Shown here: positions 22,879 through 61,826 of the stretch, piece by piece
Numbering within the stretch: position 1 is the stretch's first letter
How the letters are laid out: each line of letters starts with the position of its first letter
Origin: a virus
Direction: 5' to 3' (one strand)
Length of the DNA stretch: 64,000 nucleotides
Virus record (IMG/VR): IMGVR_UViG_3300021092_002038
Coordinates: 16,468-80,467 of that record
Notes under the pieces: generated by a model
What the model was told of the DNA's origin: nothing
The model's database searches: none
What the model saw: only the letters and a program-made list of their open reading frames with translations
Translations under genes and position numbers: made by a program

Positions 22879-23652
22879 TCATATAAAAAAAGAATCGTTA
22901 ATATTATTTTCGACATCAAAAGTCTGTATTTCGTCGGAATAAGTAGAAAGTTTTGGATATGGTAAAATTGGATGTTTTAGAGATTTTTTTAATTTTTTGT
23001 TTAAAATCTTATTGGATATAAATTTTATATATCTGTGTTTAGAACTTTCTTTCTTTCTCCAAAAAGTTTTACCTATTCTTTTTTTGAGATGTTCAATATT
23101 ATGACTGCCCCACTTGGAAAACACCGTTCGACTGTGAATCCATTTATAATTTGGAGGACCATCTAAACTTATGCTATAATTAGGCATTAAACACAAACTA
23201 TTGTTGCCTTGATATAAAAAGCCTGTAGCTTGATATATGATTCCTGAGTGATTTACTTCTGAATCCGAATAACTTACCACCGATTTTATATGTGGAAAAT
23301 CTTTATTTAATTGTTTAAAAGATTCTGCAATACAATAACTTTCTATATTTTTACCATATCCGTCATGAATAAACAGTCTTACCAATTCAAATACTTCGTC
23401 TTTTGATAATAAATCGGATAATGAACTCGACACACTTCTTCCTACAGGTTGACTATAAACCACGCAACCAATTAATTTATCTACTGTGTCGTTAAAATAT
23501 AAAAACTTCTCTTCAGTTTTATAAAAAATACCGTATGCTATCCTGCATAACGTCCATTTATGAGTATAATGGTTTTTTATAATAATATCTTTTGCTACTT
23601 TGCTGCTTATTGGTTTTAAATAAACTTTTTCAACATCACAATATTTTTCCAT
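22879..23652 (-). CDS. Mom-like (GNAT-fold) DNA modification protein
   Basis: IIKNHY, LIGCVVY, FELVRLF, KNIESYCI, VVSYSD..NHSGIIYQATGFLYQG match the phage Mu Mom-family pattern. Confidence 0.75.
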   Translation of the reverse strand: MEKYCDVEKVYLKPISSKVAKDIIIKNHYTHKWTLCRIAYGIFYKTEEKFLYFNDTVDKLIGCVVYSQPVGRSVSSSLSDLLSKDEVFELVRLFIHDGYGKNIESYCIAESFKQLNKDFPHIKSVVSYSDSEVNHSGIIYQATGFLYQGNNSLCLMPNYSISLDGPPNYKWIHSRTVFSKWGSHNIEHLKKRIGKTFWRKKESSKHRYIKFISNKILNKKLKKSLKHPILPYPKLSTYSDEIQTFDVENNINDSFFI

Positions 23653-49551: not shown

Positions 49552-49756
49552 TTATTTTTTGGAATAGTTCGTCGACTTATTATATTCTTTAGATTCTTTT
49601 TCTTTGATCTCGGTGAGTTGTTTATAGTAGAAATTTCTCAAATAAACAGGTAAATCATAAGCTATATCAACATTTATAGCTCCTTGACTGTAATAACCAA
49701 GCTGAAAAATCTGTTGATGTAAGTAAACTTTATACTCCGGTGTCAGGCCAAAAAAA
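49552..49756 (-). CDS. Probable frameshift extension of the tail/baseplate assembly chaperone
   Basis: Frame has no ATG; protein-like sequence begins at the U7 run shared with the upstream ORF (FFGLTPEYK...YDLPVYLRNFY). Confidence 0.6.
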
Positions 49757-50605
49757 GGATACCGACAACGGTATGCCCATCCTTTCGTTGTGTTGGCAGT
49801 CGGAACACTCAAAATCAAACGCCATGTCGATATCAGGTGTATTTTCTTTAACGTAGATTCTAAATGCTAAACTATCCTTGGATAACAACTGTTGATCAAC
49901 AAACTTGTTGATAATCTGTCGATCTTCGTTTCCGTCCACACTGACAATCATTTTTTTCAAACGAGTAGTGATTTCAGCCGAAGCTCCTGACTTGTTGATT
50001 TTGTTGAGTGCAGTCAATTCTTGTTCGATCGAACTTTCATCACGATGTGTCAATAACTTGTATTTTAATGTTACTTTTGACGCGGGTAAAACAAATTCAA
50101 ATAAATTTACTCCACGTTCATACTTTTCAAACTCAAACTCTTTGTTATTTACTTTTGATAAATCTATCAAACAGTTGTTTTCTTTTCCACATTTAGGACA
50201 TTTAACTTGAAGTGGTCCATAACTATCGCCATACGCCAATCTTCTTGATGCGACAAATAGAGCATTTTTATCGCCAATTAATAATTCATCGGTTTTAACT
50301 CCATCGGTAACAATCAAACTCTCCAAAAGTTTTTCCAACACCACTCCTTTTTTAATCAAATTTTGACTCGTTAAAATATCTTCTTCTTTTGCAGTCATGT
50401 ATTTTATATCTACAACACCTTTACTTAAAGGTGAATTTGAGTTGTAAAAATATCCCTCGCTAGGCAATCCAATCGTTTCTGATGGATACTTGGGTTTCTC
50501 GACTGGTTTACTAGCAGGTGATTTAACTGCCAGTCTGACTGAATCAGGAACGTTAATCGAAGTTTCTTTTTGTGGTCGTGTAATATTAATTGTATCTTCT
50601 TCCAT
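49730..50605 (-). CDS. Tail/baseplate hub assembly chaperone (T4 gp26-like)
   Basis: LPSEG..Y, MTAKEEDIL, GDKNAL...R..AYG, CPKC, LP.S, P.IDM...CSDC, FFWP. Confidence 0.75.
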   Translation of the reverse strand: MEEDTINITRPQKETSINVPDSVRLAVKSPASKPVEKPKYPSETIGLPSEGYFYNSNSPLSKGVVDIKYMTAKEEDILTSQNLIKKGVVLEKLLESLIVTDGVKTDELLIGDKNALFVASRRLAYGDSYGPLQVKCPKCGKENNCLIDLSKVNNKEFEFEKYERGVNLFEFVLPASKVTLKYKLLTHRDESSIEQELTALNKINKSGASAEITTRLKKMIVSVDGNEDRQIINKFVDQQLLSKDSLAFRIYVKENTPDIDMAFDFECSDCQHNERMGIPLSVSFFWPDTGV

Positions 50606-51037: not shown

Positions 51038-52687
51038 TTATTTTGAAAAAATCCACTTAGAGTGTCCACAATCCCAAATTCTATCGTAATTATTAAGTTG
51101 CATATTTTGCCATTCGGTTAAATTTTTATCAAATTTATTCAGTTTTTTATCAAGATTGTGTTTAACAAACCCGTATCTATGTAATCTATCTGGATTGCCA
51201 TATTTAATATAAAAATAATTAGGCGGCGTGTTTGATTCAAAAGAAAATCCTAACTTTTTATAAATATCTCCAATACTCCACCTTCTATCCGCGTATGATA
51301 TTATTTTCTTAGGATTGTAAGTCTTTATAAAATATTTAATAAGTTTACTAGCTCCACCTATTATCAGATTTTCTGAACAATATCTATACATTTCGTATTC
51401 ATCTTCTTTATGTTTGTTTCCTAGAATGACTCTGAGTTTTCCAAATGTCATAACCGATACAAGGTTTCCTTTAAAAATTAAAGCTAACCGTATCGATGAA
51501 TTGCATTTTCCCTGAAGATGGTGTGTTTCCAAAAACTGATCGCAATCTTTTGAATTAATCTCTTGGATTTCACAGTCTCTAGCATAAATCTTATTTTTTG
51601 CATTTTTACCTAAAATGTGAGATAGTCGAGTTTTGACCACGTTTTCTTTTTTAATCCACTCATCCTCAAATATGTGAATAAGTCTAATGTTCTTCTGAAG
51701 ACATTCTTCTGTTTTTTTTAAATGATACATTTTTGATTTTTTTCCTGCCAACTCACTGTGCCAATATGTTCCGTCAAATTCTATTGCAACGTTTTTAGCC
51801 GGAATGTATATATCAAGTTCACCCGAAATAATACCTCTTTGTTTTTTTTGTATTTCCACTTCGGCACCCATCAACGATTTGATATAATCGGATATTTCTT
51901 GTTCCATAATCGATGTTCCTCGAATGTATGGATTGCAAACCAAACATCTGGGAATATGTCCGCCGTCTATGTGATCTTCAAAAATTGCCTCACACTTATT
52001 ACATTTAAATTTATATAAATTTGATTTATCCGTCGTAACATACTCTTCGTTTTCAAAACAAACAGAAACATGTTCGTTTATTTTTGGATTGGATCTTAAC
52101 TTTTCCCATCGACGCAACCGATTTTTTTTAACCATTTTTAATTTTATAATATCAGAATTTACAGGTATTTTATTTCCGTATTTTTCTATATTGGTGTTGT
52201 GAATTTTAGATTTAATTGACTCACATTTAAAAACATTATCACATCCGTATTTTTTTCTAACCGTGTTTTTTACCTTTTCTTTGACCATCTTAGATTGTGA
52301 TGGATTTTCCGTTCCGTATTTTTTTAAATTTGAAATTTTTATTTTTTCTTTTACCACGTTTGATTGAAAAGAACACTCAACCCCAAAATTCTTTTTATTT
52401 GTAGTTTTAATCTTATCGATGACCTCCGATGATTTTGACGCATTATTTACGCCGTATCGTTCTAAACACGTTTTTTTTGCTTTTTCTGGATTAACATACG
52501 TCTCAGATCCATATTTTTTTAATTTTGTGCTCTTTATTTTATCAATACGATTTTTGTCATTCGCCGTCGCTTGAGAACTGCATTTAACACAACAAAATCT
52601 TTGCTTTCTTTTTATTAAAGATTCAAATTCGTTATTACATACTTCACAATTTTTTACTATATAATATGTATTTTTTAATTTTATCAT
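51038..52687 (-). CDS. Nuclease-like fusion, paralog 1 (Zn finger + KYG repeats + Vsr/DUF559-like nuclease + Mom/GNAT-like domain)
   Basis: CEVC..CCVKC; KKYG/ERYG repeats; ELDIYIP..IEFDGTYWH; HHLQG, ISYADRR, RIWDCG. Confidence 0.75.
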   Translation of the reverse strand: MIKLKNTYYIVKNCEVCNNEFESLIKRKQRFCCVKCSSQATANDKNRIDKIKSTKLKKYGSETYVNPEKAKKTCLERYGVNNASKSSEVIDKIKTTNKKNFGVECSFQSNVVKEKIKISNLKKYGTENPSQSKMVKEKVKNTVRKKYGCDNVFKCESIKSKIHNTNIEKYGNKIPVNSDIIKLKMVKKNRLRRWEKLRSNPKINEHVSVCFENEEYVTTDKSNLYKFKCNKCEAIFEDHIDGGHIPRCLVCNPYIRGTSIMEQEISDYIKSLMGAEVEIQKKQRGIISGELDIYIPAKNVAIEFDGTYWHSELAGKKSKMYHLKKTEECLQKNIRLIHIFEDEWIKKENVVKTRLSHILGKNAKNKIYARDCEIQEINSKDCDQFLETHHLQGKCNSSIRLALIFKGNLVSVMTFGKLRVILGNKHKEDEYEMYRYCSENLIIGGASKLIKYFIKTYNPKKIISYADRRWSIGDIYKKLGFSFESNTPPNYFYIKYGNPDRLHRYGFVKHNLDKKLNKFDKNLTEWQNMQLNNYDRIWDCGHSKWIFSK

Positions 52688-52743
52688 GCGTCTCCACCTG
52701 TCATTCTAACTTGAAATACATATAATTCAATCCATTAAAAAAT

Positions 52744-52778
52744 AAAAAAGTTCGCCGGTTTAGTGGCGAACTTTCTTT
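52744..52778 (-). terminator. Intrinsic terminator after tail tube gene
   Basis: - strand AAAGTTCGCC-ACTAAACC-GGCGAACTTT followed by T run. Confidence 0.85.
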
Positions 52779-52797
52779 GATATCCTTTAAACAATTT

Positions 52798-53292
52798 TTA
52801 GAATTGGAGGATACAGTAATCCATACTGAGAGTTATGGTGATTCCTATATGCTCGCCGTCGTTACTCCAATCAAGCGTACCGAAGTTGGTTGTACCTGTG
52901 ATAAATGCTCCTTTAAGAGTCCACTCTTCCACTTTATCTCCAACAGGTCCTAGAACGTTAATTGTGACATCTTTTTTGTAAAAATCACTATATCCGTCTC
53001 GACCAGTCACTGATTCGTGGTGTAAACGAATCCATTCCATGACTGCTTGTGCGCCGGACGGAACAATTGGATCATACAATTCTATTGTCACATCTTCCCA
53101 TTTGCTCTTTCCACGATATTTTCTTTGAATGTTGATGTGGTTTAATTCTTTTACAGCTGCGTTAATTTTGGGTCGATCTGTTTTCTTGATTAGGAAGGAC
53201 GGAATTCCATCAAGATACATGATAAAGCGATTTTGAACTTTAGGTTCGAAAGCTGTGAAAAAGATTTCATTGGATTGTAATAAGTCTGCCAT
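52798..53292 (-). CDS. Tail tube protein (T4 gp19-like)
   Basis: FEPKVQNRF, W.DVTIELYD, VMEW, YKKD, VEEWTLKGAF, FGTLDW, LSMDY. Confidence 0.88.
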   Translation of the reverse strand: MADLLQSNEIFFTAFEPKVQNRFIMYLDGIPSFLIKKTDRPKINAAVKELNHINIQRKYRGKSKWEDVTIELYDPIVPSGAQAVMEWIRLHHESVTGRDGYSDFYKKDVTINVLGPVGDKVEEWTLKGAFITGTTNFGTLDWSNDGEHIGITITLSMDYCILQF

Positions 53293-53429
53293 AATTTAAA
53301 ATTCCTTATTTTGATGTTTTGATGTTATATTCATCGTTGAGTATAAATAATAAAAAAAACAAAAAAAATGATTTTAATTTTTACTTTAATAATTATATTT
53401 ACAGCTTTCGAACTAAAAGGTAATATTTT

Positions 53430-54989
53430 ATGGGTAGACGTAGAAAGAATCCGATTAACGTGACAAAACAATGTCCAACATGTGGCGTTAATTTTTTAAT
53501 TAAATATTCAAAACAACATCAAGTTTATTGTAGTCGAGCTTGTTCACAGAAATCTCCATCGGTTATAGCAAAAATGAAATGTAGTCAAAAAGAAACGTTT
53601 ATTGAAAAATATGGAGTAGAACACCCTATGTTGACCGATGCTACAAAATTAAATTTTAAAAAATCGATGTTGAGTAAATATGGTGTTGATCATCCAAGTC
53701 ATATGGATGGACACAGGGAAAAGGTTAAGTTAACATTGAAAAACAGATACGGTGCTGAAAATTATAACAATCTTAAACAAATGGAAAAAACCATGTTTGA
53801 CAGATATGGGGTTGTGAACTATAGAAAAACTTCAGCTTGTTCGGACAAAATAAAACAAACGTGTTTGAAAAAATATGGTGTGGAACATGCCTCTCAAAGA
53901 GAAGAGCTAAGGCATAAACATCGCTCGAATATGTTTATTAAATTTAAAAATTTGCCAGAATTTGAGAATTTTACACCTCTGTTTAGTTTAAATGATCTAC
54001 AGGGAATGTCTTCTGAAATTATTAGATACAAATTTAAATGTAACCGATGCGATTCTCTTGATTTTTACAAACTTATAGATGGAAGTAAACCTTTATGTAA
54101 AAAATGTGATAAAGATATTTTATTTAAAAACCAAAACGAATTGTGTTTGTTTTTAAAAGATATTTTAGAAAAAGATGAAACGATTATTGTTGATGATCTA
54201 ACTATACTATATCCTCAAGAAGTAGATTTATATATTCCATCGAAAAAAATTGTAGTCGATCTTGTGGATTTGCAATCTCACAGCGAATTGGTTGGCGGTA
54301 AAAATAAAACATATCATTTGTTAAAAACCAAAAAATGTCTGAGAAAAGAAGTTGAGTGTGTTCAGATTTTTGAAAATGAATGGAATGATAAAAAAGAAAT
54401 AGTGAAATCAATTTTAAAAAATAAATTTAAAAAATGTGATAATAAATTTTATGCTCGTAACTGCACTGTAAAAATTCTTAACAAAGAAGAATGTAAAAAT
54501 TTTTTAAACGAAAATCATATTCAGGGAAACGATAAGTCTTTTTTTAAAATTGGTTTGTTTCATAACAATATGTTGGTGTCGGCAATGACATTTTGTAAAA
54601 GTAGATATAATAAAAATTACGAATACGAACTTAGTCGTTATTGTAACAAATTGTATTCAAACGTTGTCGGTGGAGCGGAAAAGTTATTTTCTTTCTTTTT
54701 AAAAAAATACAATCCCAAAAACATTATTACTTACAGTGATCGTCGATTTTTTTCCGGCGAAGTATATCTTAAATTAAAATTTAATTTTACACATAACACC
54801 TCTCCCAATTATTTTTATATATCGGATAATTATAAAACTTTATTAGGAAGAATTAGCTTTCAGAAACATAAATTGAAAAAATTGTTGTCTTTGTATGAAG
54901 AAAATCTTAGTGAGTGGGAAAACATGAAAAACAACGGATATGATAGAATTTGGGATTGTGGCCACTCGACCTGGGTTTATACCGCTTAA
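53430..54989 (+). CDS. Nuclease-like fusion, paralog 2 (degenerate nuclease site)
   Basis: Same architecture; nuclease motif reads EVDLYIP..IVVDLVDLQSH instead of IEFDG.YWH. Confidence 0.75.
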   Translation: MGRRRKNPINVTKQCPTCGVNFLIKYSKQHQVYCSRACSQKSPSVIAKMKCSQKETFIEKYGVEHPMLTDATKLNFKKSMLSKYGVDHPSHMDGHREKVKLTLKNRYGAENYNNLKQMEKTMFDRYGVVNYRKTSACSDKIKQTCLKKYGVEHASQREELRHKHRSNMFIKFKNLPEFENFTPLFSLNDLQGMSSEIIRYKFKCNRCDSLDFYKLIDGSKPLCKKCDKDILFKNQNELCLFLKDILEKDETIIVDDLTILYPQEVDLYIPSKKIVVDLVDLQSHSELVGGKNKTYHLLKTKKCLRKEVECVQIFENEWNDKKEIVKSILKNKFKKCDNKFYARNCTVKILNKEECKNFLNENHIQGNDKSFFKIGLFHNNMLVSAMTFCKSRYNKNYEYELSRYCNKLYSNVVGGAEKLFSFFLKKYNPKNIITYSDRRFFSGEVYLKLKFNFTHNTSPNYFYISDNYKTLLGRISFQKHKLKKLLSLYEENLSEWENMKNNGYDRIWDCGHSTWVYTA

Positions 54990-55678
54990 TTTTTTTCAAA
55001 AATACTCACCGAATGATCGTATACATCTTTTTTTAAATCTCTTATTCTTTTTATATATCCTTTAGATCTTAAAAGTTTAAACACAACATTTTCTACGCTC
55101 ATTTCTCCAGACGAATCTAATCCAGTTTGCCTCATTTTATATAAGTCATTAATCAGCGTATTCAACTTATCTACTGTGGTAGGTTCTTCTGTAAATCTAT
55201 TTATTTTATAAACGTAATCATTATATTTACTCTTGACCATTTCTTTATCTATTATCACCTTTTGTTTTTTCGGCTTAACAATCCAATATCCTTTCATTAA
55301 AGAATAAATTCCAGTCGCATGTGTTTTATGATTTACGTCTTGAATATAACCTTCGACGTTATAACCTTTAATAGTAATGTCATGTTCGTAATTCCACTTT
55401 GATTTTAAAGCGTTTAAATAATTCTGCGCTTCTTTTTGATCGACTCCTAGTTCGTTAATATCAATAACCAAATGAATATCTATATCACTTGTAGTCGTCC
55501 AGTTATAGTTTGCAGAACTTCCTAATAATAATACATCTTTAAGAGCGGGCTTTATTTTTATTTCTGCATAAAAATCAGAAGCGATTTTTAAAAGCTTTGC
55601 AGAAATTTCAGGCTTGATGTTTTCATCAGACTGCCATATGGCAGGATTTAAAGTGGATTGATATAATCGATCAAACAT
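54986..55678 (-). CDS. Pol-beta-superfamily nucleotidyltransferase
   Basis: LLGSSANYNW...SDIDIH, VEGYIQD; likely start is ATG 55678 (MFDRLY), overlapping the upstream stop. Confidence 0.75.
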   Translation of the reverse strand: MFDRLYQSTLNPAIWQSDENIKPEISAKLLKIASDFYAEIKIKPALKDVLLLGSSANYNWTTTSDIDIHLVIDINELGVDQKEAQNYLNALKSKWNYEHDITIKGYNVEGYIQDVNHKTHATGIYSLMKGYWIVKPKKQKVIIDKEMVKSKYNDYVYKINRFTEEPTTVDKLNTLINDLYKMRQTGLDSSGEMSVENVVFKLLRSKGYIKRIRDLKKDVYDHSVSIFEKN

Positions 55679-56213
55679 ATCTGTAAAGTTCTTTAATAAT
55701 CCTTTCGGCGTTAATGCGTTCAAGATCACCAATTGTTCTATTAGCATTAAAATGCTGAATTCCGATTCCTCCTTTAGCTCTCCAAGAATCGATATTATTC
55801 TTGTAGTCGTCAACTAATATTTTTCCAGGCCCCGCATATTTCTGTTTATCCTGCGCTGATCCAACAATAATAATATCCGAAGCATCAATTTGCGATGTAA
55901 AATTATATTTTTTAAGCCACAATCTTTTTCCTTCATCTGCATAAATACTTCCGTTTTTCTCACTTGAACTGCTTAAAATTCCAACGCGAACAAAGTTTTT
56001 AAATACAAAACTTTTAAGATCTTCCATGTCTTTCATCGGAGTCATGTTTTCCCAAAATTCCACTCCCGCGTCATTTATAAACTTCCACAACGATTGCGAT
56101 CCTTTGGTTTTTTCATATTCAGCAACATCAACTCCTGATTTAATTTTAAATTCAAGATGAAAATCGCATAATACGCCATCCATATCAAGGTATATTATTT
56201 CAATATCAGTCAT
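55671..56213 (-). CDS. HAD-family 5'(3')-deoxyribonucleotidase-like protein
   Basis: YLDMDGVLCDF, ILSS, GKRLW, ILVDDY..N...W...GG; likely start is ATG 56213 (MTDIE). Confidence 0.8.
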   Translation of the reverse strand: MTDIEIIYLDMDGVLCDFHLEFKIKSGVDVAEYEKTKGSQSLWKFINDAGVEFWENMTPMKDMEDLKSFVFKNFVRVGILSSSSEKNGSIYADEGKRLWLKKYNFTSQIDASDIIIVGSAQDKQKYAGPGKILVDDYKNNIDSWRAKGGIGIQHFNANRTIGDLERINAERIIKELYRYV

Positions 56214-56350
56214 ATCGTTGTATAATAAATATCCATTTAAAATATAAATAGTTGACTTTGTTTTATAAAAAACTATATGTACAACATGCTGTTGCAAGCA
56301 AAACAAGCACAATAACTAAAATAAGTAAAACAAGTACAATATAATTAAAA

Positions 56351-56533
56351 TTAAGTACTTAAGGAAAATAAAATATCAAAATTGTCAAAGGTGTATTTTT
56401 TATGTAATAGTTGTTCGATCGAATTCTCTCCGTTCCAACCGTCACTCCAGGGTTGACCGTATTCAGGACCGGCTAATACATGTTCAATGTTGTTATCGTC
56501 GTACTCAACGAAAATCTTAGTATCGATTTTCAT
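56351..56533 (-). CDS. Small hypothetical protein
   Basis: 60 aa; TATTTATA 4 nt upstream of ATG. Confidence 0.5.
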   Translation of the reverse strand: MKIDTKIFVEYDDNNIEHVLAGPEYGQPWSDGWNGENSIEQLLHKKYTFDNFDILFSLST

Positions 56534-56580
56534 ATACTATAAATATCAAAATATAATAAATAATTTATTTTTTTTAATAA

Positions 56581-58515
56581 TTATTTTTTCCACTCGTATT
56601 TTAAATGTCCACAATCCCAAATTCTATCATATCCGTTGTTTTTCATGTTTTCCCATTCGCTTAAGTTTTCATCGAAAATTTTAAGCTTATCTTTTAGAAC
56701 ATTTTTTCTAAAATTAAATCTGTGATACAATTTTAACGCATTGCTTTTATAGAAATACCAATAGTTAGGAGACGTTATACTTGACAAATCAAACCCCAAT
56801 TTTTTATAAAACGCTTCTCCTGATTTACTATATCGCCTATCCGCATAGCTTATTACGGATTCAGGATTATAATTTTTAACAAAATATGAAAACATCCTTC
56901 CAGCCGCCCCAATCACGGTCTGAGACATGCAAAATCGATACAGTTCATATTCATCATCTGCGGTATTAGTGGAATTTCCTAAAGCGACACGTTTATTACC
57001 AAAGGTCATTACTGATACAAGTTTATCATTATAGAATAATCCTAATTTAATTGAGGATTTATCAGGCCCCTGCAAATGATTTAATGTTAAAAAACGAGAA
57101 GCGATATTTGAGCCGACAACACGAACCTCGCAATCTCTAGCATAGATTTTTTCTGCGTTATTTAACCCTAAAATATGAGTCAACCTACGTTTAACAATAT
57201 CTTGGTTATTCATCCACTCATTTTCAAATATATGAATCAGTCTCACGCCGACCACCTCACATTTTTCAGTCTTGTTCAGATGATAATTTTTATCTTTACC
57301 ACAAGACTCTCCATGCCAATAAATTCCATCAAGTTCTATTGCCAATTTCTTCTCTGGAATGTAAACATCCAACTCAAGTGGATTTATTACAGTTCTGTCA
57401 TCCTTAACAATTAAACACTCATTTCCTAATTTAGATTTAATAAAATCTACCAACTCTAACTGAATTCCACTTTTCGTTGGATACGGTTCGCACGATAAAC
57501 ATCTCGGATCTTTTCCATTTGATATAATGTCACTAAATACATCATTACATTTTTTACATTTAAACTTATAAGGAATTCCTACTCCGCCAACTTTATTTCC
57601 CAAATACTCTGATTCCGAAAACATCGGAACGAACTTATCTTCTATCTTTTTAAATAACCTCTCTAAATATTTTTTATTTTTTTCATTTTTAGAACGACGA
57701 GAAACATCCGAATTCTTCATCGCATTTTCAACTCCATATCTATCTCGCATGGTTTTTAAAAACCCATCCGTTCCAAATCCTATTTTTCCAGATTTCAAAT
57801 TCTTCTTTGTAGAAATCGAAACATTTGGAGAATAGGGCAATCCATATTTCTCAATTAAAGTGGTCCGAGCTTTGGGTCTATTATTATAATTCTCATCGCC
57901 ATACTTTTCTAGTTTAGTCTTTTTAACTTTATCTATATTCACATAATTTTCATCACCATATTTATCAATCTTTGTATTTTTTACCTTATTTATATTTACA
58001 TAATTCTCATCTCCATACTTCTCAAGTTTGGTTTTCTTGGATTTAAAAACAAAATCCGACAGTTTGGAAGCATGATCAACTCCATATTTTTTTAACATTG
58101 TATTTCTCAATGTATTCATTCTTTTTTCATTTACATCTTTACTAGAATTCAATGTTAATAAACAACCCTTAGAACATGTAATCTTTTTCCTTTTCTTATA
58201 AACATCAAACTCCTTATTACACACAACACAATTTCGAGTCTCGTGACTGTTTTTATGTTTAGAGTCGCCCACACATTTATAAGAACACCGATTTCTGTAA
58301 CCCTTGTAAATTCCATCAAATTTACATTTTTTCCCACACGACTCACATCGACCAACATTTTCCCCATTCAAAAAATGATAAAGCTTTTGGCCAAATGATT
58401 CAAAATCATACATACCATCGATGTCACGATAAAAATCTGGATGCATTCTTTTAAGTTGAATAGAATAATTTTCACGATTTTTTTCCAAAAACAAATTCAA
58501 TTCTTCAATAGTCAT
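56581..58515 (-). CDS. Nuclease-like fusion, paralog 3
   Basis: Zn fingers, KYGDENY repeats, ELDVYIP..IELDGIYWH, NHLQG, ISYADRR, RIWDCG. Confidence 0.75.
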   Translation of the reverse strand: MTIEELNLFLEKNRENYSIQLKRMHPDFYRDIDGMYDFESFGQKLYHFLNGENVGRCESCGKKCKFDGIYKGYRNRCSYKCVGDSKHKNSHETRNCVVCNKEFDVYKKRKKITCSKGCLLTLNSSKDVNEKRMNTLRNTMLKKYGVDHASKLSDFVFKSKKTKLEKYGDENYVNINKVKNTKIDKYGDENYVNIDKVKKTKLEKYGDENYNNRPKARTTLIEKYGLPYSPNVSISTKKNLKSGKIGFGTDGFLKTMRDRYGVENAMKNSDVSRRSKNEKNKKYLERLFKKIEDKFVPMFSESEYLGNKVGGVGIPYKFKCKKCNDVFSDIISNGKDPRCLSCEPYPTKSGIQLELVDFIKSKLGNECLIVKDDRTVINPLELDVYIPEKKLAIELDGIYWHGESCGKDKNYHLNKTEKCEVVGVRLIHIFENEWMNNQDIVKRRLTHILGLNNAEKIYARDCEVRVVGSNIASRFLTLNHLQGPDKSSIKLGLFYNDKLVSVMTFGNKRVALGNSTNTADDEYELYRFCMSQTVIGAAGRMFSYFVKNYNPESVISYADRRYSKSGEAFYKKLGFDLSSITSPNYWYFYKSNALKLYHRFNFRKNVLKDKLKIFDENLSEWENMKNNGYDRIWDCGHLKYEWKK

Positions 58516-58584: not shown

Positions 58585-58620
58585 AAAAAAATTGGCAACT
58601 TGTTTAGTCGCCAATTTTTT
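58585..58620 (-). terminator. Intrinsic terminator after tail sheath gene
   Basis: - strand AAAAAATTGGCGAC-TAAACAA-GTTGCCAATTTTTT. Confidence 0.85.
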
Positions 58621-58637
58621 CGAATGGAATTTAAATA

Positions 58638-61600
58638 TTAAGCGCCTGGGAAAGCAGCACCAGTTGGTAATATATTAAAATCAAGAACAATGAATTCAGC
58701 CGTTTTGGCAGGTTGTAGATAGATTTGACCATACAATATGTTTCTATCAATCAAATCCGGCGTATTATTACTTTCATCCATCACAACTTGGAATGCATAT
58801 AGACCACTTCGTTGTTGAACGCTTTCCAAATATGGATTCACGATGCCTAAGAATCTATTTCTTGTGGCGGTCACGTTCTGTTCAAACACCAAGAATTTAG
58901 AACTACTTGCGATAAACTTCTTAAGCGCAATTAACAATCTGCGAACGTTAATTCTATCTAAAGCACTTGGTTTTTGCTGAAGGGTTTTCTGTCCCCATAC
59001 ACAAATTCCTTGGCCAGGGAATGCCGCGATAGGATTGACTCTTCCCTCGTATAGAGTATCACGTTCAGAATGCGTCAGTCTGTCTAAAACTTGAACAGCT
59101 TGAGTGATACCACCACGATTCAAGCCGGCCGGAGCAAACCATTCTGCGGCAGCGGCATCATTAGCTGCGTAAATAGCAGGTAACACTACGCTAGGCGGAA
59201 CACTTATAATCTTATTTAGATTTGTATCTAATATCTTCACCCACGGATAATAAGTGGCAGCGTAATTTGTATCATATGTTGAGGCTTGATTTACCGCTGA
59301 ATCAATTAATCCTACACTTTGATTGCTTGAGGGGAAAACTACGTTATCCATAATATAGAAACAATCTCCACGAGCTTCACACATGTCAACCACAAGATTT
59401 GTTACGTAACTGTGTAAGCTAGAGAAAATGCCTGGAGTAACAATCAAATTAATATCAAATTCATCTGCGTTACCCAGTGCTCCTATACATTGTTTGTAAG
59501 CTATACTACCAGCACTATTAATATTTACGCAATTTAATCCTTGAGTATTTCCAGCAATTATATCAGAACCAATATTAATAGGAATAGCAGGCCACTGTCC
59601 ATCAAATCCACCCTGCATGCCTAAAACGAATTTACGTTTTTTAACGTTAGTAGATTCATCAGCCGCGATATAATAGGATGGAACTCCATTTCCTGAAGTA
59701 ACTCCTCCGATTGTATAATCTGATTCCAAATCAAAATCATCGTTTCCTCCGTTGCTATCATTTGAACCAAACGCAGGAAGCGGAGCAAAATATTGTTCAT
59801 TGTCACGATTACATCCTACACCTGAAGAGGCGGTAGGATACAGAGCTCTAAGAGCGTCAGGAGCACCTACAGGCACTTCTCCAATCATTACTCCTGAAGC
59901 ATATTTACCTGGAGTTTCACTATAGGTTGAAGCTTTTGTATATTTCATTGTAGGCAAGAATATACTATAGTTACTATCCATTGGAGTAGCATATGCTCGG
60001 AAGCCGTAAGGAACCGCATCAACAGGATAAATATCTGTAGTCATTTCGATACGAATATATTTACTCAAGTTGACATAAGTTCCAAATTCAATAATTTTAC
60101 CGGCAAAGGTAATGAAGTTGTATCGATCACCAATTTTACGAGCAATGAAATTTGCAGAATCAGGATCAAGATTTAAGTTTTGGAAGCTCTCTAAATATTT
60201 AGGACGTTTCTCGGTGTCACTATAACTACGAACACTTAGAGTAAAACTACCATAATCAGAACCAGGAACAGTACCTGCCAGTTTAACATTACTAATTTCA
60301 ATTTTAAACCGTGTATTTTCACCAGTACCATCACCTAAAGTGTGAACCTTAAACAAATTGAATTTACCTGGAACAGCCGGACCAGCCGTACCAGTCCAAG
60401 GAGCAACAGTTTGTGAGGTAATGAATGGAGTCTCAGCCTGTTTAAGACCGAACGCACTATCTCCTTTATTTAAATCCGTAGAATACTTGTCAGAGAAATT
60501 CAATAAACCACCAACACGATCTTGACCCTCGATAGTAGTTCCAACTTTAATCATCCAATTTTCTTTTTCTGCTTTTACCTGTTCAATTGTATCCTCGAAT
60601 ATTGAATATATGTAAGCGGCTTCAATTTTTTGTCCACTAACTTGTTTGGCAGGATCACCAACCGTAGCATCATCACCAAACACAGAAGTTATATATTTAC
60701 TATTATTTGGATCCAATGAAAATCTATATGTTCCAAATGCACTACCAACAGAACTACTTAATTTTAAATCAAATTCTAAGCTTGTGGCTCTTTCTGACGC
60801 AGAAGAAGTAATTGTAGTCAAATCACCACTGAAACCAGGAATACTCAAGTCAGATAAATTTTGATTAGCATTTCTGGTATTAGCCAAAACTGCCAATATC
60901 TGAGGCAAAGCGCCTGAATTTGTAGAAGCACACGGATCCGAACTCACAACGGAAGAACTGATGAACTCTCCTGTATAATCTCCATATTCACCCTGTATAT
61001 TTCCTGACACAAGATACAATACCGTGCCACAACCACCTTCAGTACGTACGGCTTTAAATACACCGTTTAGTATTGTTAGAGCAGAACCATCTTCTGTATC
61101 AAATGTAGACGAAGCGGTAATATTTAATGATATTCCTGACATCGAAAGATTAGACGTAGTTGAGGTAGTTTCTAATAACGCTTGAGTGAGTTTGGCTAAA
61201 CTAGAAAAAGTGGAATTACTTTGAATACTAGAACTAATAAAAAATTTTCCTGAAGTAAATGTGGCCGTAGTAGTGCCTAGTTCCACGGTTTGTCCAGCAA
61301 ACGCTAAACTTGATGTATTAAACTTAGCTATTACAGTGACGTTATTTAGCGTAATTGACCCAGTGTCTGTACTATTAGAACCGCTATATGTAATAAAATT
61401 TAAAGGATCAGTTGAACCATCTGAACTTTTTACAAACGAATTATTTCCAGTTTGAACCGCTTCACTTAAACCATTACGATCCCAAGTTCCAGGAACTGCA
61501 TAAATCATCAACGGATTGTTTTGTTTATAGCCTGTGAGTGCTCCTACTCTGCATACGGTGACTCTTCCTTGTTCTTGTAAATACTCTTTGGCGGTATAAG

Positions 61601-61826
61601 GTCCGTAATATACACCATCCGCAACTCCAAATCGTTCTTCAAGATCAGTTACGGAGGTAATTAACGTGGGAGAAAAACCTGGTCCTTTTGCAAACGGCGC
61701 GACGACAACTCCGCCTATGTCAGCGACACCTTGCGCGAGACCGCTGAGGTCGTTTTCTCTTGTAAAAACGCCCGGAGACACTATTTGGTTAACCGGACTA
61801 AATCTTCCACCTTCTGTAATTGGCAT
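58638..61826 (-). CDS. Contractile tail sheath protein (T4 gp18-like)
   Basis: VSPGVFTRENDLS, YYPWV, WFAPAGLNRG, VWGQKTL, SALDRINVRRLL, PAKTAEFI. Confidence 0.95.
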   Translation of the reverse strand: MPITEGGRFSPVNQIVSPGVFTRENDLSGLAQGVADIGGVVVAPFAKGPGFSPTLITSVTDLEERFGVADGVYYGPYTAKEYLQEQGRVTVCRVGALTGYKQNNPLMIYAVPGTWDRNGLSEAVQTGNNSFVKSSDGSTDPLNFITYSGSNSTDTGSITLNNVTVIAKFNTSSLAFAGQTVELGTTTATFTSGKFFISSSIQSNSTFSSLAKLTQALLETTSTTSNLSMSGISLNITASSTFDTEDGSALTILNGVFKAVRTEGGCGTVLYLVSGNIQGEYGDYTGEFISSSVVSSDPCASTNSGALPQILAVLANTRNANQNLSDLSIPGFSGDLTTITSSASERATSLEFDLKLSSSVGSAFGTYRFSLDPNNSKYITSVFGDDATVGDPAKQVSGQKIEAAYIYSIFEDTIEQVKAEKENWMIKVGTTIEGQDRVGGLLNFSDKYSTDLNKGDSAFGLKQAETPFITSQTVAPWTGTAGPAVPGKFNLFKVHTLGDGTGENTRFKIEISNVKLAGTVPGSDYGSFTLSVRSYSDTEKRPKYLESFQNLNLDPDSANFIARKIGDRYNFITFAGKIIEFGTYVNLSKYIRIEMTTDIYPVDAVPYGFRAYATPMDSNYSIFLPTMKYTKASTYSETPGKYASGVMIGEVPVGAPDALRALYPTASSGVGCNRDNEQYFAPLPAFGSNDSNGGNDDFDLESDYTIGGVTSGNGVPSYYIAADESTNVKKRKFVLGMQGGFDGQWPAIPINIGSDIIAGNTQGLNCVNINSAGSIAYKQCIGALGNADEFDINLIVTPGIFSSLHSYVTNLVVDMCEARGDCFYIMDNVVFPSSNQSVGLIDSAVNQASTYDTNYAATYYPWVKILDTNLNKIISVPPSVVLPAIYAANDAAAAEWFAPAGLNRGGITQAVQVLDRLTHSERDTLYEGRVNPIAAFPGQGICVWGQKTLQQKPSALDRINVRRLLIALKKFIASSSKFLVFEQNVTATRNRFLGIVNPYLESVQQRSGLYAFQVVMDESNNTPDLIDRNILYGQIYLQPAKTAEFIVLDFNILPTGAAFPGA

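What the first reader, a model, noticed from the sequence alone, without database searches (positions are those of the whole stretch)
51038..58515. Three paralogous nuclease + Mom/GNAT-like fusion genes bracketing the tail tube and sheath genes
Seen: 51038..52687, 53430..54989 and 56581..58515 share Zn-finger, (K/R)YG repeats, Zn ribbon, a Vsr/DUF559-like ELDxYIP..IExDGxYWH nuclease, and a C-terminal domain (HxQG, LVSxMTF, YE(L/M)xR(F/Y)C, I(S/T)Y(A/S)DRR, G..Y..L.F). That domain's motif order parallels the stand-alone Mom-like protein at 22879 (NHY, LIG.V.Y, ELVR, VSYSD, G.IY...GF). Each gene sits next to a highly conserved structural gene, as free-standing homing endonucleases do. Inference: a selfish or antagonistic element coupling DNA cleavage to an acyl-transfer DNA-marking or mark-reading domain in one polypeptide, conceptually a restriction-modification unit based on acylation rather than methylation.
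Basis: partly seen in the sequence, partly recalled or inferred. Interest (0 to 1): 0.72.

Follow-up and report, generated by a model that had tools for sequence, protein, structure and literature searches.

The report
Three Hef-type homing endonuclease genes
The three genes are copies of a known selfish phage gene, the Hef-type homing endonuclease; their tail really is related to phage Mu's DNA-modifying enzyme Mom, but that fusion is already published and its function has never been tested.

Summary
ORFs 51038-52687(-), 53430-54989(+) and 56581-58515(-) are paralogs (37-47% identity). Each has a Zn finger, KYG repeats (Pfam DUF7487), a Zn ribbon, a Vsr-like nuclease and a C-terminal GNAT domain related to Mom.

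They are not a new kind of element. All three match PHROG 3339 ("homing endonuclease") full length. They also match genes annotated hef or Hef-like in Campylobacter, RaK2 and PA5oct phages. The nuclease matches I-Bth0305I (3R3P) by profile and by fold.

The C-terminal model (pLDDT 92.9) has Mu Mom (8BV8) as top Foldseek hit, and its profile aligns with the Mom family at 97.8% probability. Counterparts of Mom H58, R111, D149, R151 and Y159 are invariant. The essential S124 is not conserved (S, E, G here).

Across 80 related phage loci the three slots are sporadically filled (2/66, 9/23, 6/58). This fits mobile genes, not fixed core genes.

The nuclease-Mom fusion and the cut-and-protect idea were published by Iyer et al. 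2021. This scan has already reported the family on other DNA (88 notes, at least 73 genomes).

One point is specific to this window. Paralog 2 has a scrambled nuclease core but an intact Mom-like domain, and a 98.6%-identical strain variant shares this.

The parts
51038..52687 (-). Paralog 1, a Hef-type homing endonuclease of 549 aa. Zn finger aa 14-36; KYG/DUF7487 repeats about aa 46-200; Zn ribbon aa 229-251; Vsr-like nuclease about aa 257-360 (nt 51608-51919); Mom-like GNAT about aa 361-549 (nt 51041-51607).
   Evidence: phrog_3339 E 1.5e-126, full length; DUF7487 E 1.2e-20; 32-39% identical over 95-99% of its length to genes annotated hef or Hef-like in CP220, RaK2 and PA5oct; GNAT model pLDDT 92.9.
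53430..54989 (+). Paralog 2, a Hef-type gene of 519 aa on the opposite strand to its neighbours. The Mom-like domain is intact and the nuclease core is atypical.
   Evidence: phrog_3339 E 1.3e-107. Positional orthologs lie in the same orientation in 9 of 23 related loci.
54249..54278 (+). Scrambled catalytic-core patch of paralog 2. It encodes IVVDLVDLQS where the family has (L)AIE(F/Y)(D/N)GLYW.
   Evidence: Unique among 123 family members at five near-invariant positions, with E303D shared by one other. About 17 of 30 nt differ from the L001 ortholog while the flanks are about 85-90% identical, with no frameshift. The same patch occurs in an independent contig that is 98.6% identical.
56581..58515 (-). 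Paralog 3, a Hef-type homing endonuclease of 644 aa, with an extra N-terminal Cys-rich segment of about 85 aa. The Mom-like GNAT lies at nt 56581-57165.
   Evidence: phrog_3339 E 2.6e-115. The isolated C-terminal domain reaches the Pfam Mom PF25680 cut-off (28.2 against 27.1 bits).
52798..53292 (-). Tail tube gene (T4 gp19-like), flanked by paralogs 1 and 2. A probable target neighbourhood.
   Evidence: PF06841 E 2.9e-6 (27.6 bits, just under the 28.2-bit cut-off); phrog_4542 E 1e-23. More than 600 relatives in IMG/VR.
58638..61826 (-). Tail sheath gene (gp18-like), directly upstream of paralog 3.
   Evidence: PF04984 and PF17482; phrog_23 E 1.4e-68. PA5oct has the same order, sheath followed by a Hef-like gene.
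49730..50605 (-). Baseplate hub-like gene. It is the other boundary of the slot that holds paralog 1.
   Evidence: PF12322 E 3.7e-15; phrog_150.
52744..52777 (-). Terminator-like hairpin between the tube gene and paralog 1.
   Evidence: 13-bp stem followed by a T run. This is a consensus match only.
58585..58621 (-). Terminator-like hairpin between the sheath gene and paralog 3.
   Evidence: 16-bp stem followed by a T run, with an ACTAAAC loop like the one at 52744-52777. This is a consensus match only.
22879..23652 (-). Stand-alone bona fide Mom gene of the same phage, used as the comparison domain.
   Evidence: PF25680 E 1.9e-40; phrog_1384 E 3.7e-45; matches PDB 8BV8 at E 4.9e-9. It carries the Mom-family invariants H28, Y29, R92 and S105 and the near-invariant D130.

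Best explanation
The three genes are free-standing, mobile Hef-type homing endonuclease genes of an uncultured T4-like jumbo myophage. They belong to the Vsr-like 'EDxHD' lineage, whose prototype is I-Bth0305I.

Inferred mechanism: the N-terminal Zn finger, the KYG repeats and the Zn ribbon bind a long DNA site. The Vsr-like domain (D292 and H310 in paralog 1 numbering) cuts the HEG-less allele of a co-infecting relative, close to the tube, sheath or hub genes. Recombinational repair then copies the endonuclease gene into the empty intergenic slot.

The C-terminal domain is a true, strongly conserved relative of Mom and is a standard part of this family. It keeps most of Mom's active-site pocket but not its catalytic serine. 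My best guess is that it engages a base, probably an adenine, in the target DNA. It might modify that base, but this step is only inferred.

Paralog 2 is probably a nuclease-impaired copy that has kept the Mom-like domain.
For: Family: all three match phrog_3339 full length (E 1e-107 to 1e-126). There are 429 phage records with matches, including genes annotated hef or Hef-like at 95-99% coverage, and more than 6,000 database proteins at E<1e-5.

Nuclease: the profile hits I-Bth0305I 3R3P at E 3.8e-5, with D196 aligned to D292 and H213 to H310. The model (pLDDT 86.4) hits 3R3P (TM 0.75 normalised to the target), Vsr 1CW0/1VSR and DUF559 3HRL. D292, H310, H322 and K325 are invariant in 123 sequences. 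Taylor et al. 2011 place Hef-type enzymes in this family (PMC3239194).

Mobility: in 80 related loci, Hef fills the tube-to-hub slot in 2/66, the NTase-to-tube slot in 9/23 (8 clean empty sites of 70-73 bp) and the sheath slot in 6/58. In the closest relative, L001, the slot of paralog 1 holds a C2H2 plus HNH-like ORF instead.

Confidence: 0.88

Rival explanations
1. Single-chain 'cut-and-protect' unit, as proposed by the first reader and by Iyer et al. 2021. In this reading the Mom-like domain is an active DNA adenine acyl- or aminoacyl-transferase. It marks the carrier genome, for example at the enzyme's own target sites, so that the fused nuclease cuts only unmarked competitor or host DNA.
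For: The homology to Mom is specific. Counterparts of Mom H58, R111, D149, R151 and Y159 are invariant in 123 relatives, and the domain is as constrained as the nuclease. 409 of 429 Hef-bearing phage records keep the domain. Paralog 2 keeps the domain while its nuclease core is scrambled, as a modification-only copy might. The prediction is published in PMC7824862.
Against: Mom's essential S124 has no conserved counterpart: it is S, E and G in the three copies, and hhalign places it in a 6-residue deletion. Mom Y59 is replaced by L/I. Homing endonucleases normally need no modification for self-protection. From my memory of Sandegren et al. 2005 (not readable here), U5 Hef cut its own DNA as well as HEG-less DNA. 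No biochemical data exist.
Confidence: 0.3
2. The Mom-like domain is a catalytically inert module that has been recruited for target recognition. It might act as a base-flipping or DNA-clamping domain, or possibly in dimerisation. In that case the protein only cuts DNA.
For: The catalytic Ser is lost and the N-x-E-S loop, which is invariant or nearly so in the Mom family, is absent. Mom itself binds dsDNA and is modelled to flip the target adenine (PMC13219725), so the scaffold is pre-adapted for DNA recognition. Phage homing endonucleases typically combine a small nuclease with several DNA-binding modules (PMC3943268).
Against: Invariant acidic and other polar residues in the pocket (D467, H390, Q392, C540, D539, N528) are more than a pure DNA clamp would need. 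The invariant G444-x-(A/G) at the start of helix 3 resembles the GNAT phosphate-binding loop (this is my inference).
Confidence: 0.35
3. The genes are domesticated and no longer selfish. In this reading they serve the phage as weapons against co-infecting phages or host DNA, or as regulators, and are kept by selection on the phage rather than by homing.
For: All three ORFs are intact and 99.6-100% identical in a second strain that is 98.6% identical at the DNA level. Paralog 2 keeps an open frame despite a scrambled nuclease core. The paralog 2 slot is filled in 9 of 23 relatives, always in the same orientation.
Against: Occupancy is low and patchy in the other two slots (2/66 and 6/58). In the closest relative one slot holds a different endonuclease class. 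Copy number varies from 0 to 11 among phages. All of this is typical of selfish spread.
Confidence: 0.12

Closest known systems
Hef (phage U5) and 'Hef-like' free-standing homing endonucleases. Examples are Campylobacter CP220, CPt10 and IBB_35, Klebsiella RaK2 hef, Pseudomonas PA5oct, Dickeya LIMEstone1 F-LimIII, VII, VIII and X, and PHROG 3339/559.
   Same: Full-length architecture and sequence: 32-39% identity over 95-99% of the protein. The genes are free-standing and sit next to conserved structural genes. A Hef-like gene lies directly after the sheath gene in PA5oct and next to the tail tube gene in LIMEstone1 (PMC3296691). Several copies per genome are common.
   Different: Only the host phage differs (an uncultured jumbo phage, IMG/VR contig about 28% complete), along with the atypical nuclease core of paralog 2. 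I did not compare U5 Hef itself directly.
I-Bth0305I (PDB 3R3P), prototype of the EDxHD Vsr-like homing endonucleases
   Same: The nuclease domains are homologous by profile (E 3.8e-5) and by fold (TM 0.75 normalised to the target). The catalytic Asp and His are conserved.
   Different: I-Bth0305I is intron-encoded. It has N-terminal NUMOD/HTH modules and ends with the nuclease, with no Zn finger plus KYG-repeat array and no C-terminal GNAT (PMC3239194). Its D222 aligns with an invariant His here.
Phage Mu Mom (PDB 8BV8; Pfam PF25680), a Gly-tRNA-dependent DNA adenine N6 modifying GNAT
   Same: GNAT fold with an insertion before the last strands. The profiles align at 97.8% probability. Counterparts of H58, R111, D149, R151 and Y159 are conserved.
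   Different: The Hef domain is fused to a nuclease. It lacks a conserved S124 and the N-x-E-S loop, has L/I for Y59, and is about 6 residues shorter between the R111 and D149 equivalents. Only one of the three copies reaches the Pfam cut-off, and its activity is unknown.
Jumbo-phage Mom-REase fusions predicted by Iyer, Anantharaman, Krishnan, Burroughs and Aravind 2021 (PMC7824862)
   Different: That paper treats them as a restriction-like conflict system and does not connect them to homing. The present data stress sporadic slot occupancy, which is typical of homing endonuclease genes.

Membership tests
Hef-type / EDxHD (Vsr-like) homing endonucleases | Vsr-like nuclease fold | tested here: met
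   Model pLDDT 86.4. Foldseek hits 3R3P (E 8.6e-4, TM 0.75 normalised to the target), 1CW0, 1VSR and 3HRL. The profile hits 3R3P at E 3.8e-5.
Hef-type / EDxHD (Vsr-like) homing endonucleases | Conserved catalytic residues (I-Bth0305I E170, D196, N208, H213, D222) | tested here: inconclusive
   The D196 and H213 equivalents (D292, H310) are invariant in 123 sequences and present in all three paralogs. The N208 position is D, V and D in paralogs 1, 2 and 3 (family D or N). D222 aligns with an invariant His322. For E170, E264 (104/123) is only a candidate, because the alignment does not reach that residue.
Hef-type / EDxHD (Vsr-like) homing endonucleases | Full-length similarity to genes annotated as Hef | tested here: met
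   phrog_3339 E 1e-107 to 1e-126. RaK2 hef, IBB_35 Hef and PA5oct Hef-like cover 97-99% of the query.
Hef-type / EDxHD (Vsr-like) homing endonucleases | Free-standing gene with sporadic presence at a fixed intergenic site next to conserved genes | tested here: met
   Slot occupancy is 2/66, 9/23 and 6/58 in related loci. Empty sites measure 70-73 bp. The closest relative has a different, HNH-like ORF in one slot.
Hef-type / EDxHD (Vsr-like) homing endonucleases | Site-specific cleavage near its own locus, and homing in mixed infection | not testable with these tools
   This needs enzyme assays and phage crosses.
Mom family (PF25680) | GNAT fold | tested here: met
Mom family (PF25680) | Score above the Pfam gathering threshold | tested here: inconclusive
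   The isolated domain of paralog 3 scores 28.2 bits against a 27.1 cut-off, while the full-length protein scores 25.0. Paralogs 1 and 2 give no hit. Many homologs carry a precomputed PF25680 hit. hhalign gives 97.8% probability.
Mom family (PF25680) | Essential residues R111, D149 and R151 (plus H58 and Y159) | tested here: met
   R435, D467, R469, H390 and Y476 are invariant in 123 relatives and in all three paralogs.
Mom family (PF25680) | Catalytic Ser124 within the N-x-E-S loop | tested here: not met
   The loop falls in a 6-residue deletion in the hhalign alignment. Under the most favourable manual alignment the position is S, E and G in paralogs 1 to 3, and S in only 70 of 123 relatives. 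The Ser is invariant in the Mom alignment A4.
Mom family (PF25680) | HTH-like insertion (Mu residues 175-209) required for activity | tested here: inconclusive
   The model has a helical insertion (model residues about 149-176) before the last two strands. The VIA alignment spans chain residues 36-221. hhalign does not align this part.
Mom family (PF25680) | Gly-tRNA-dependent modification of N6 of adenine in dsDNA | not testable with these tools
   This needs LC-MS of DNA after expression, as done in PMC13219725.
Restriction-modification system | The modification activity protects self DNA from the cognate nuclease | not testable with these tools
   No sequence-based test exists. There is no evidence either way here.

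The most novel reading that the evidence does not exclude
The Hef C-terminal domain is an active DNA base acyl- or aminoacyl-transferase that uses a catalytic set different from Mom's (no Ser124). This would make Hef genes single-chain 'cut-and-protect' homing elements. Paralog 2, with its scrambled nuclease core and intact Mom-like domain, would then be a natural modification-only derivative that shields the tube-gene region from related Hef nucleases.
Probability: 0.2. Interest if true: 0.7.

Novelty: new member of a known kind. Interest (0 to 1): 0.28.

Why it matters
On its own this is routine annotation: three more members of a very large family of selfish phage genes, in positions already seen in cultured phages. 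One open question remains, and it applies to the whole family rather than to this window. More than 6,000 Hef-type proteins carry a strongly conserved Mom-like GNAT domain whose function nobody has tested. If that domain modifies DNA, Hef genes would be the first homing endonucleases that chemically mark DNA. This window offers a convenient natural set for such a test. It has two copies with canonical nuclease cores, one copy with a disrupted core but an intact GNAT domain, and a bona fide stand-alone Mom in the same phage as a positive control.

Tried and rejected
(1) Complex prediction on two copies of residues 255-549 (nuclease plus GNAT) returned 'no answer' with a score of 0.00. This is not evidence for or against dimerisation.

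(2) A HMMER profile of the C-terminal domain against PDB sequences did not reach 8BV8. It gave only a weak hit to glyphosate N-acetyltransferase at E 0.021. The link to Mom needed profile-profile and fold comparison.

(3) NCBIfam gave only sub-threshold Vsr hits.

(4) I asked whether paralog 2's odd patch came from a compensated frameshift. It did not. The other frames hold stops, and the difference is a cluster of substitutions.

(5) I asked whether the patch was an assembly artefact. It is not, because the same sequence occurs in a second contig that is 98.6% identical.

(6) I tested a 'reader of momylated DNA' as a general role for the domain and rejected it. Stand-alone Mom and Hef-type genes occur in nearly disjoint sets of cultured phages.

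(7) Sigma-70-like promoter matches were no more frequent than in shuffled sequence (40 against 47.1 +/- 6.9), so I draw no conclusion about promoters.

(9) Sandegren et al. 2005 is not held in the library. What I say about U5 Hef rests on second-hand citations (PMC3322345, PMC3296691, PMC3239194) and on my memory.

(10) No paper mentions DUF7487.


Full report
**Observation**

The window lies in an 80,467-bp IMG/VR virus contig that is estimated to be about 28% complete, so this is probably a jumbo phage. ORFs of 549, 519 and 644 aa sit exactly at 51038-52687(-), 53430-54989(+) and 56581-58515(-). They align over their whole length, at 37% and 47% identity to the first.

All three share the same layout:
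- an N-terminal Cys4 finger;
- tandem KYG repeats (Pfam DUF7487, E 1e-15 to 1e-20);
- a CxxC...CxxC ribbon;
- an ELDxYIP...H nuclease core;

The neighbours are a gp19-like tail tube gene (52798-53292), a gp18-like sheath gene (58638-61826) and a baseplate hub-like gene (49730-50605). Between paralogs 2 and 3 lies a nucleotidyltransferase-like gene followed by a 5'-nucleotidase gene.

**What the genes are**

All three match PHROG 3339 ("homing endonuclease") over the full length, with E 1e-107 to 1e-126. A tblastn search of 50,697 phage genomes finds 429 records with matches. These include genes annotated 'Hef', 'hef' or 'Hef-like homing endonuclease' in Campylobacter phages CP220, CPt10 and IBB_35, Klebsiella phage RaK2 and Pseudomonas phage PA5oct. 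Identity is 32-39% over 95-99% of the query.

The protein database holds more than 6,000 relatives at E<1e-5. The position is also familiar. In PA5oct a Hef-like gene directly follows the tail sheath gene. In Dickeya phage LIMEstone1 a Hef-like gene neighbours the tail tube gene (PMC3296691).

**Nuclease domain**

[quoted passage not shown] In that alignment the mutated D196 and H213 of the crystal construct line up with D292 and H310.

An AlphaFold2 model of the Zn-ribbon plus nuclease segment has pLDDT 86.4. It matches 3R3P (TM 0.75 normalised to the target, rmsd 3.0), Vsr (1CW0, 1VSR) and DUF559 (3HRL). D292, H310, H322 and K325 are invariant in 123 sequences, and E290, E303, E341 and E343 nearly so. 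Taylor et al. 2011 already assigned 'bacteriophage Hef type homing endonucleases' to this Vsr-like EDxHD family (PMC3239194).

**C-terminal domain**

With a 36-sequence alignment the model reaches pLDDT 92.9. Foldseek against the PDB puts Mu Mom (8BV8) first, at E 8.9e-8, followed by ordinary GNAT acetyltransferases. In the viral library, Hef-like proteins come first and Mom proteins follow at about E 2e-11.

- hhalign of the Hef-domain profile against a 43-sequence Mom profile gives 97.8% probability, E 1.2e-12, over 132 columns;
- the isolated domain of paralog 3 just passes the Pfam Mom cut-off, at 28.2 against 27.1 bits;
- many relatives carry a precomputed PF25680 hit.

**Active-site mapping**

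The Mom profile aligns to 8BV8 at E 1.9e-40, which lets me map residues. In Mu Mom, R111, S124, D149 and R151 are essential, and H58, Y59 and Y159 are important (PMC13219725).

| Mu Mom residue | Counterpart in paralog 1 | Status in 123 relatives |
|---|---|---|
| H58 | H390 | invariant |
| R111 | R435 | invariant |
| D149 | D467 | invariant |
| R151 | R469 | invariant |
| Y159 | Y476 | invariant |
| Y59 | L/I | replaced |
| S124 | none conserved | see below |

The invariant counts come and the Y59 replacement. The Mom N-x-E-S loop that carries S124 falls in a 6-residue deletion in the hhalign alignment. Under the most favourable manual alignment the position is S, E and G in paralogs 1 to 3, and Ser in only 70 of 123 relatives.

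The domain is as conserved as the nuclease: the mean top-residue fraction is 0.62 against 0.63. It has 13 invariant positions, so it is functional. Whether it is catalytic cannot be decided from sequence.

**Mobility**

I fetched 80 IMG/VR loci around homologs of the tube gene (63-88% identity) and mapped the window's genes onto them.

| Slot | Loci with a Hef gene | Empty gaps |
|---|---|---|
| tube to hub | 2 of 66 | median 245 bp |
| NTase to tube | 9 of 23 | eight sites of 70-73 bp |
| after the sheath gene | 6 of 58 | median 95 bp |

In L001, the closest relative (tube 88% identical), the slot of paralog 1 instead holds a 270-aa ORF. That ORF has a C2H2 finger and an HNH-like motif (phrog_8048, E 1.3e-4). 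Sporadic occupancy of fixed intergenic sites, and exchange between endonuclease classes at one site, are what free-standing homing endonuclease genes do. The genes are not fixed core genes.

Terminator-like hairpins lie between the tube gene and paralog 1, and between the sheath gene and paralog 3. These are consensus matches only.

**What is specific to this window**

Paralog 2 deviates from the rest of the 123 sequences in a 10-residue stretch of the nuclease core. It reads IVVDLVDLQS where the family has (L)AIE(F/Y)(D/N)GLYW. The changes include E303D and a Val at the position equivalent to I-Bth0305I N208 and Vsr H64.

At the DNA level, about 17 of 30 nt differ from the L001 ortholog, which is 69% identical in protein and has an intact motif. 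The flanks are about 85-90% identical, and there is no frameshift. The same patch occurs in a second contig that is 98.6% identical and carries all three genes. So it is real and is kept in an open frame with an intact Mom-like domain. I read this copy as probably nuclease-impaired, which is an inference.

The selfish-endonuclease part and the Mom/GNAT homology hold. The 'restriction-modification by acylation' part is untested and is already in print. Iyer et al. [quoted passage not shown] They propose that momylation protects phage DNA while the nuclease attacks other DNA (PMC7824862).

Three things temper the idea:
- the missing Ser124;
- Mom uses Gly-tRNAGly rather than acyl-CoA (PMC13219725), so acyl-CoA binding would not be a decisive test;
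- stand-alone Mom and Hef-type genes occur in nearly disjoint sets of cultured phages.

On the last point, stand-alone Mom appears in 115 records, mostly small siphoviruses of Listeria, Proteus and Mycobacterium. The Hef domain appears in 409 records, mostly large myoviruses, with up to 11 copies per genome. A general 'reader of momylated DNA' role is therefore unlikely.

**Earlier scan notes**

The scan has already reported this family on other DNA: 88 notes in at least 73 genomes. Its follow-up reports reach the same reading. One of them described copies in which an arginine that Mom needs is replaced. Here both arginines are intact.

**Verdict**

These are new members of a known kind. Interest is low to moderate, and it rests on the untested function of the family-wide Mom-like domain and on the natural nuclease-core variant found in this window.

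Noticed in passing
window 54249-54278 (within 53430-54989, +): Paralog 2 has a cluster of substitutions exactly over the nuclease catalytic core, reading IVVDLVDLQS instead of (L)AIE(F/Y)(D/N)GLYW. This is unique among 123 relatives. The rest of the ORF, including the Mom-like domain, is intact, and a 98.6%-identical strain variant (L083/L084) shares the patch.
   Followed up: yes
L001:6136-6948 (+): In the closest relative, the tube-hub slot that holds paralog 1 in the window is occupied by a 270-aa ORF with a C2H2 zinc finger and an HNH-like motif (phrog_8048, E 1.3e-4). Different endonuclease classes therefore occupy the same slot.
   Followed up: partly
window 54897-54964 and 56606-56673; also 51063-51145 and 56606-56688: The 3' ends of paralogs 2 and 3 form a 68-nt inverted repeat that is 90% complementary. 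It flanks the NTase and 5'-nucleotidase module. The 3' ends of paralogs 1 and 3 form an 83-nt direct repeat at 76% identity. This is far more similar than the genes are overall, so it suggests local gene conversion or strong constraint on the ...NGYDRIWDCGH end.
   Followed up: no
window 52744-52777 and 58585-58621 (-): Two similar terminator-like hairpins with ACTAAAC-type loops lie directly after the tube and sheath genes, just upstream of paralogs 1 and 3.
   Followed up: no
window 54986-56312 (-): The nucleotidyltransferase-like (phrog_36119) plus 5'-deoxyribonucleotidase (PF06941) module between sheath and tube is itself accessory. Most related loci have the sheath gene directly next to the tube gene (50 of 58). 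The listed TTG start of the 213-aa ORF overlaps the NTase gene by 143 nt and is probably too far upstream.
   Followed up: partly
window 61246-61385 and the sheath gene 58638-61826: Between the window and strain variant L083, the sheath protein is only about 91% identical, and the DNA alignment breaks at 61246-61385. The neighbouring tube, NTase and nucleotidase proteins are 100% identical. This points to a hypervariable or recombined part of the sheath.
   Followed up: no
window 22879-23652 (-): The same phage carries a bona fide stand-alone Mom (PF25680, E 1.9e-40) with the Mom-family invariants, including the catalytic Ser. Its DNA may therefore be momylated independently of the Hef genes.
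   Followed up: partly
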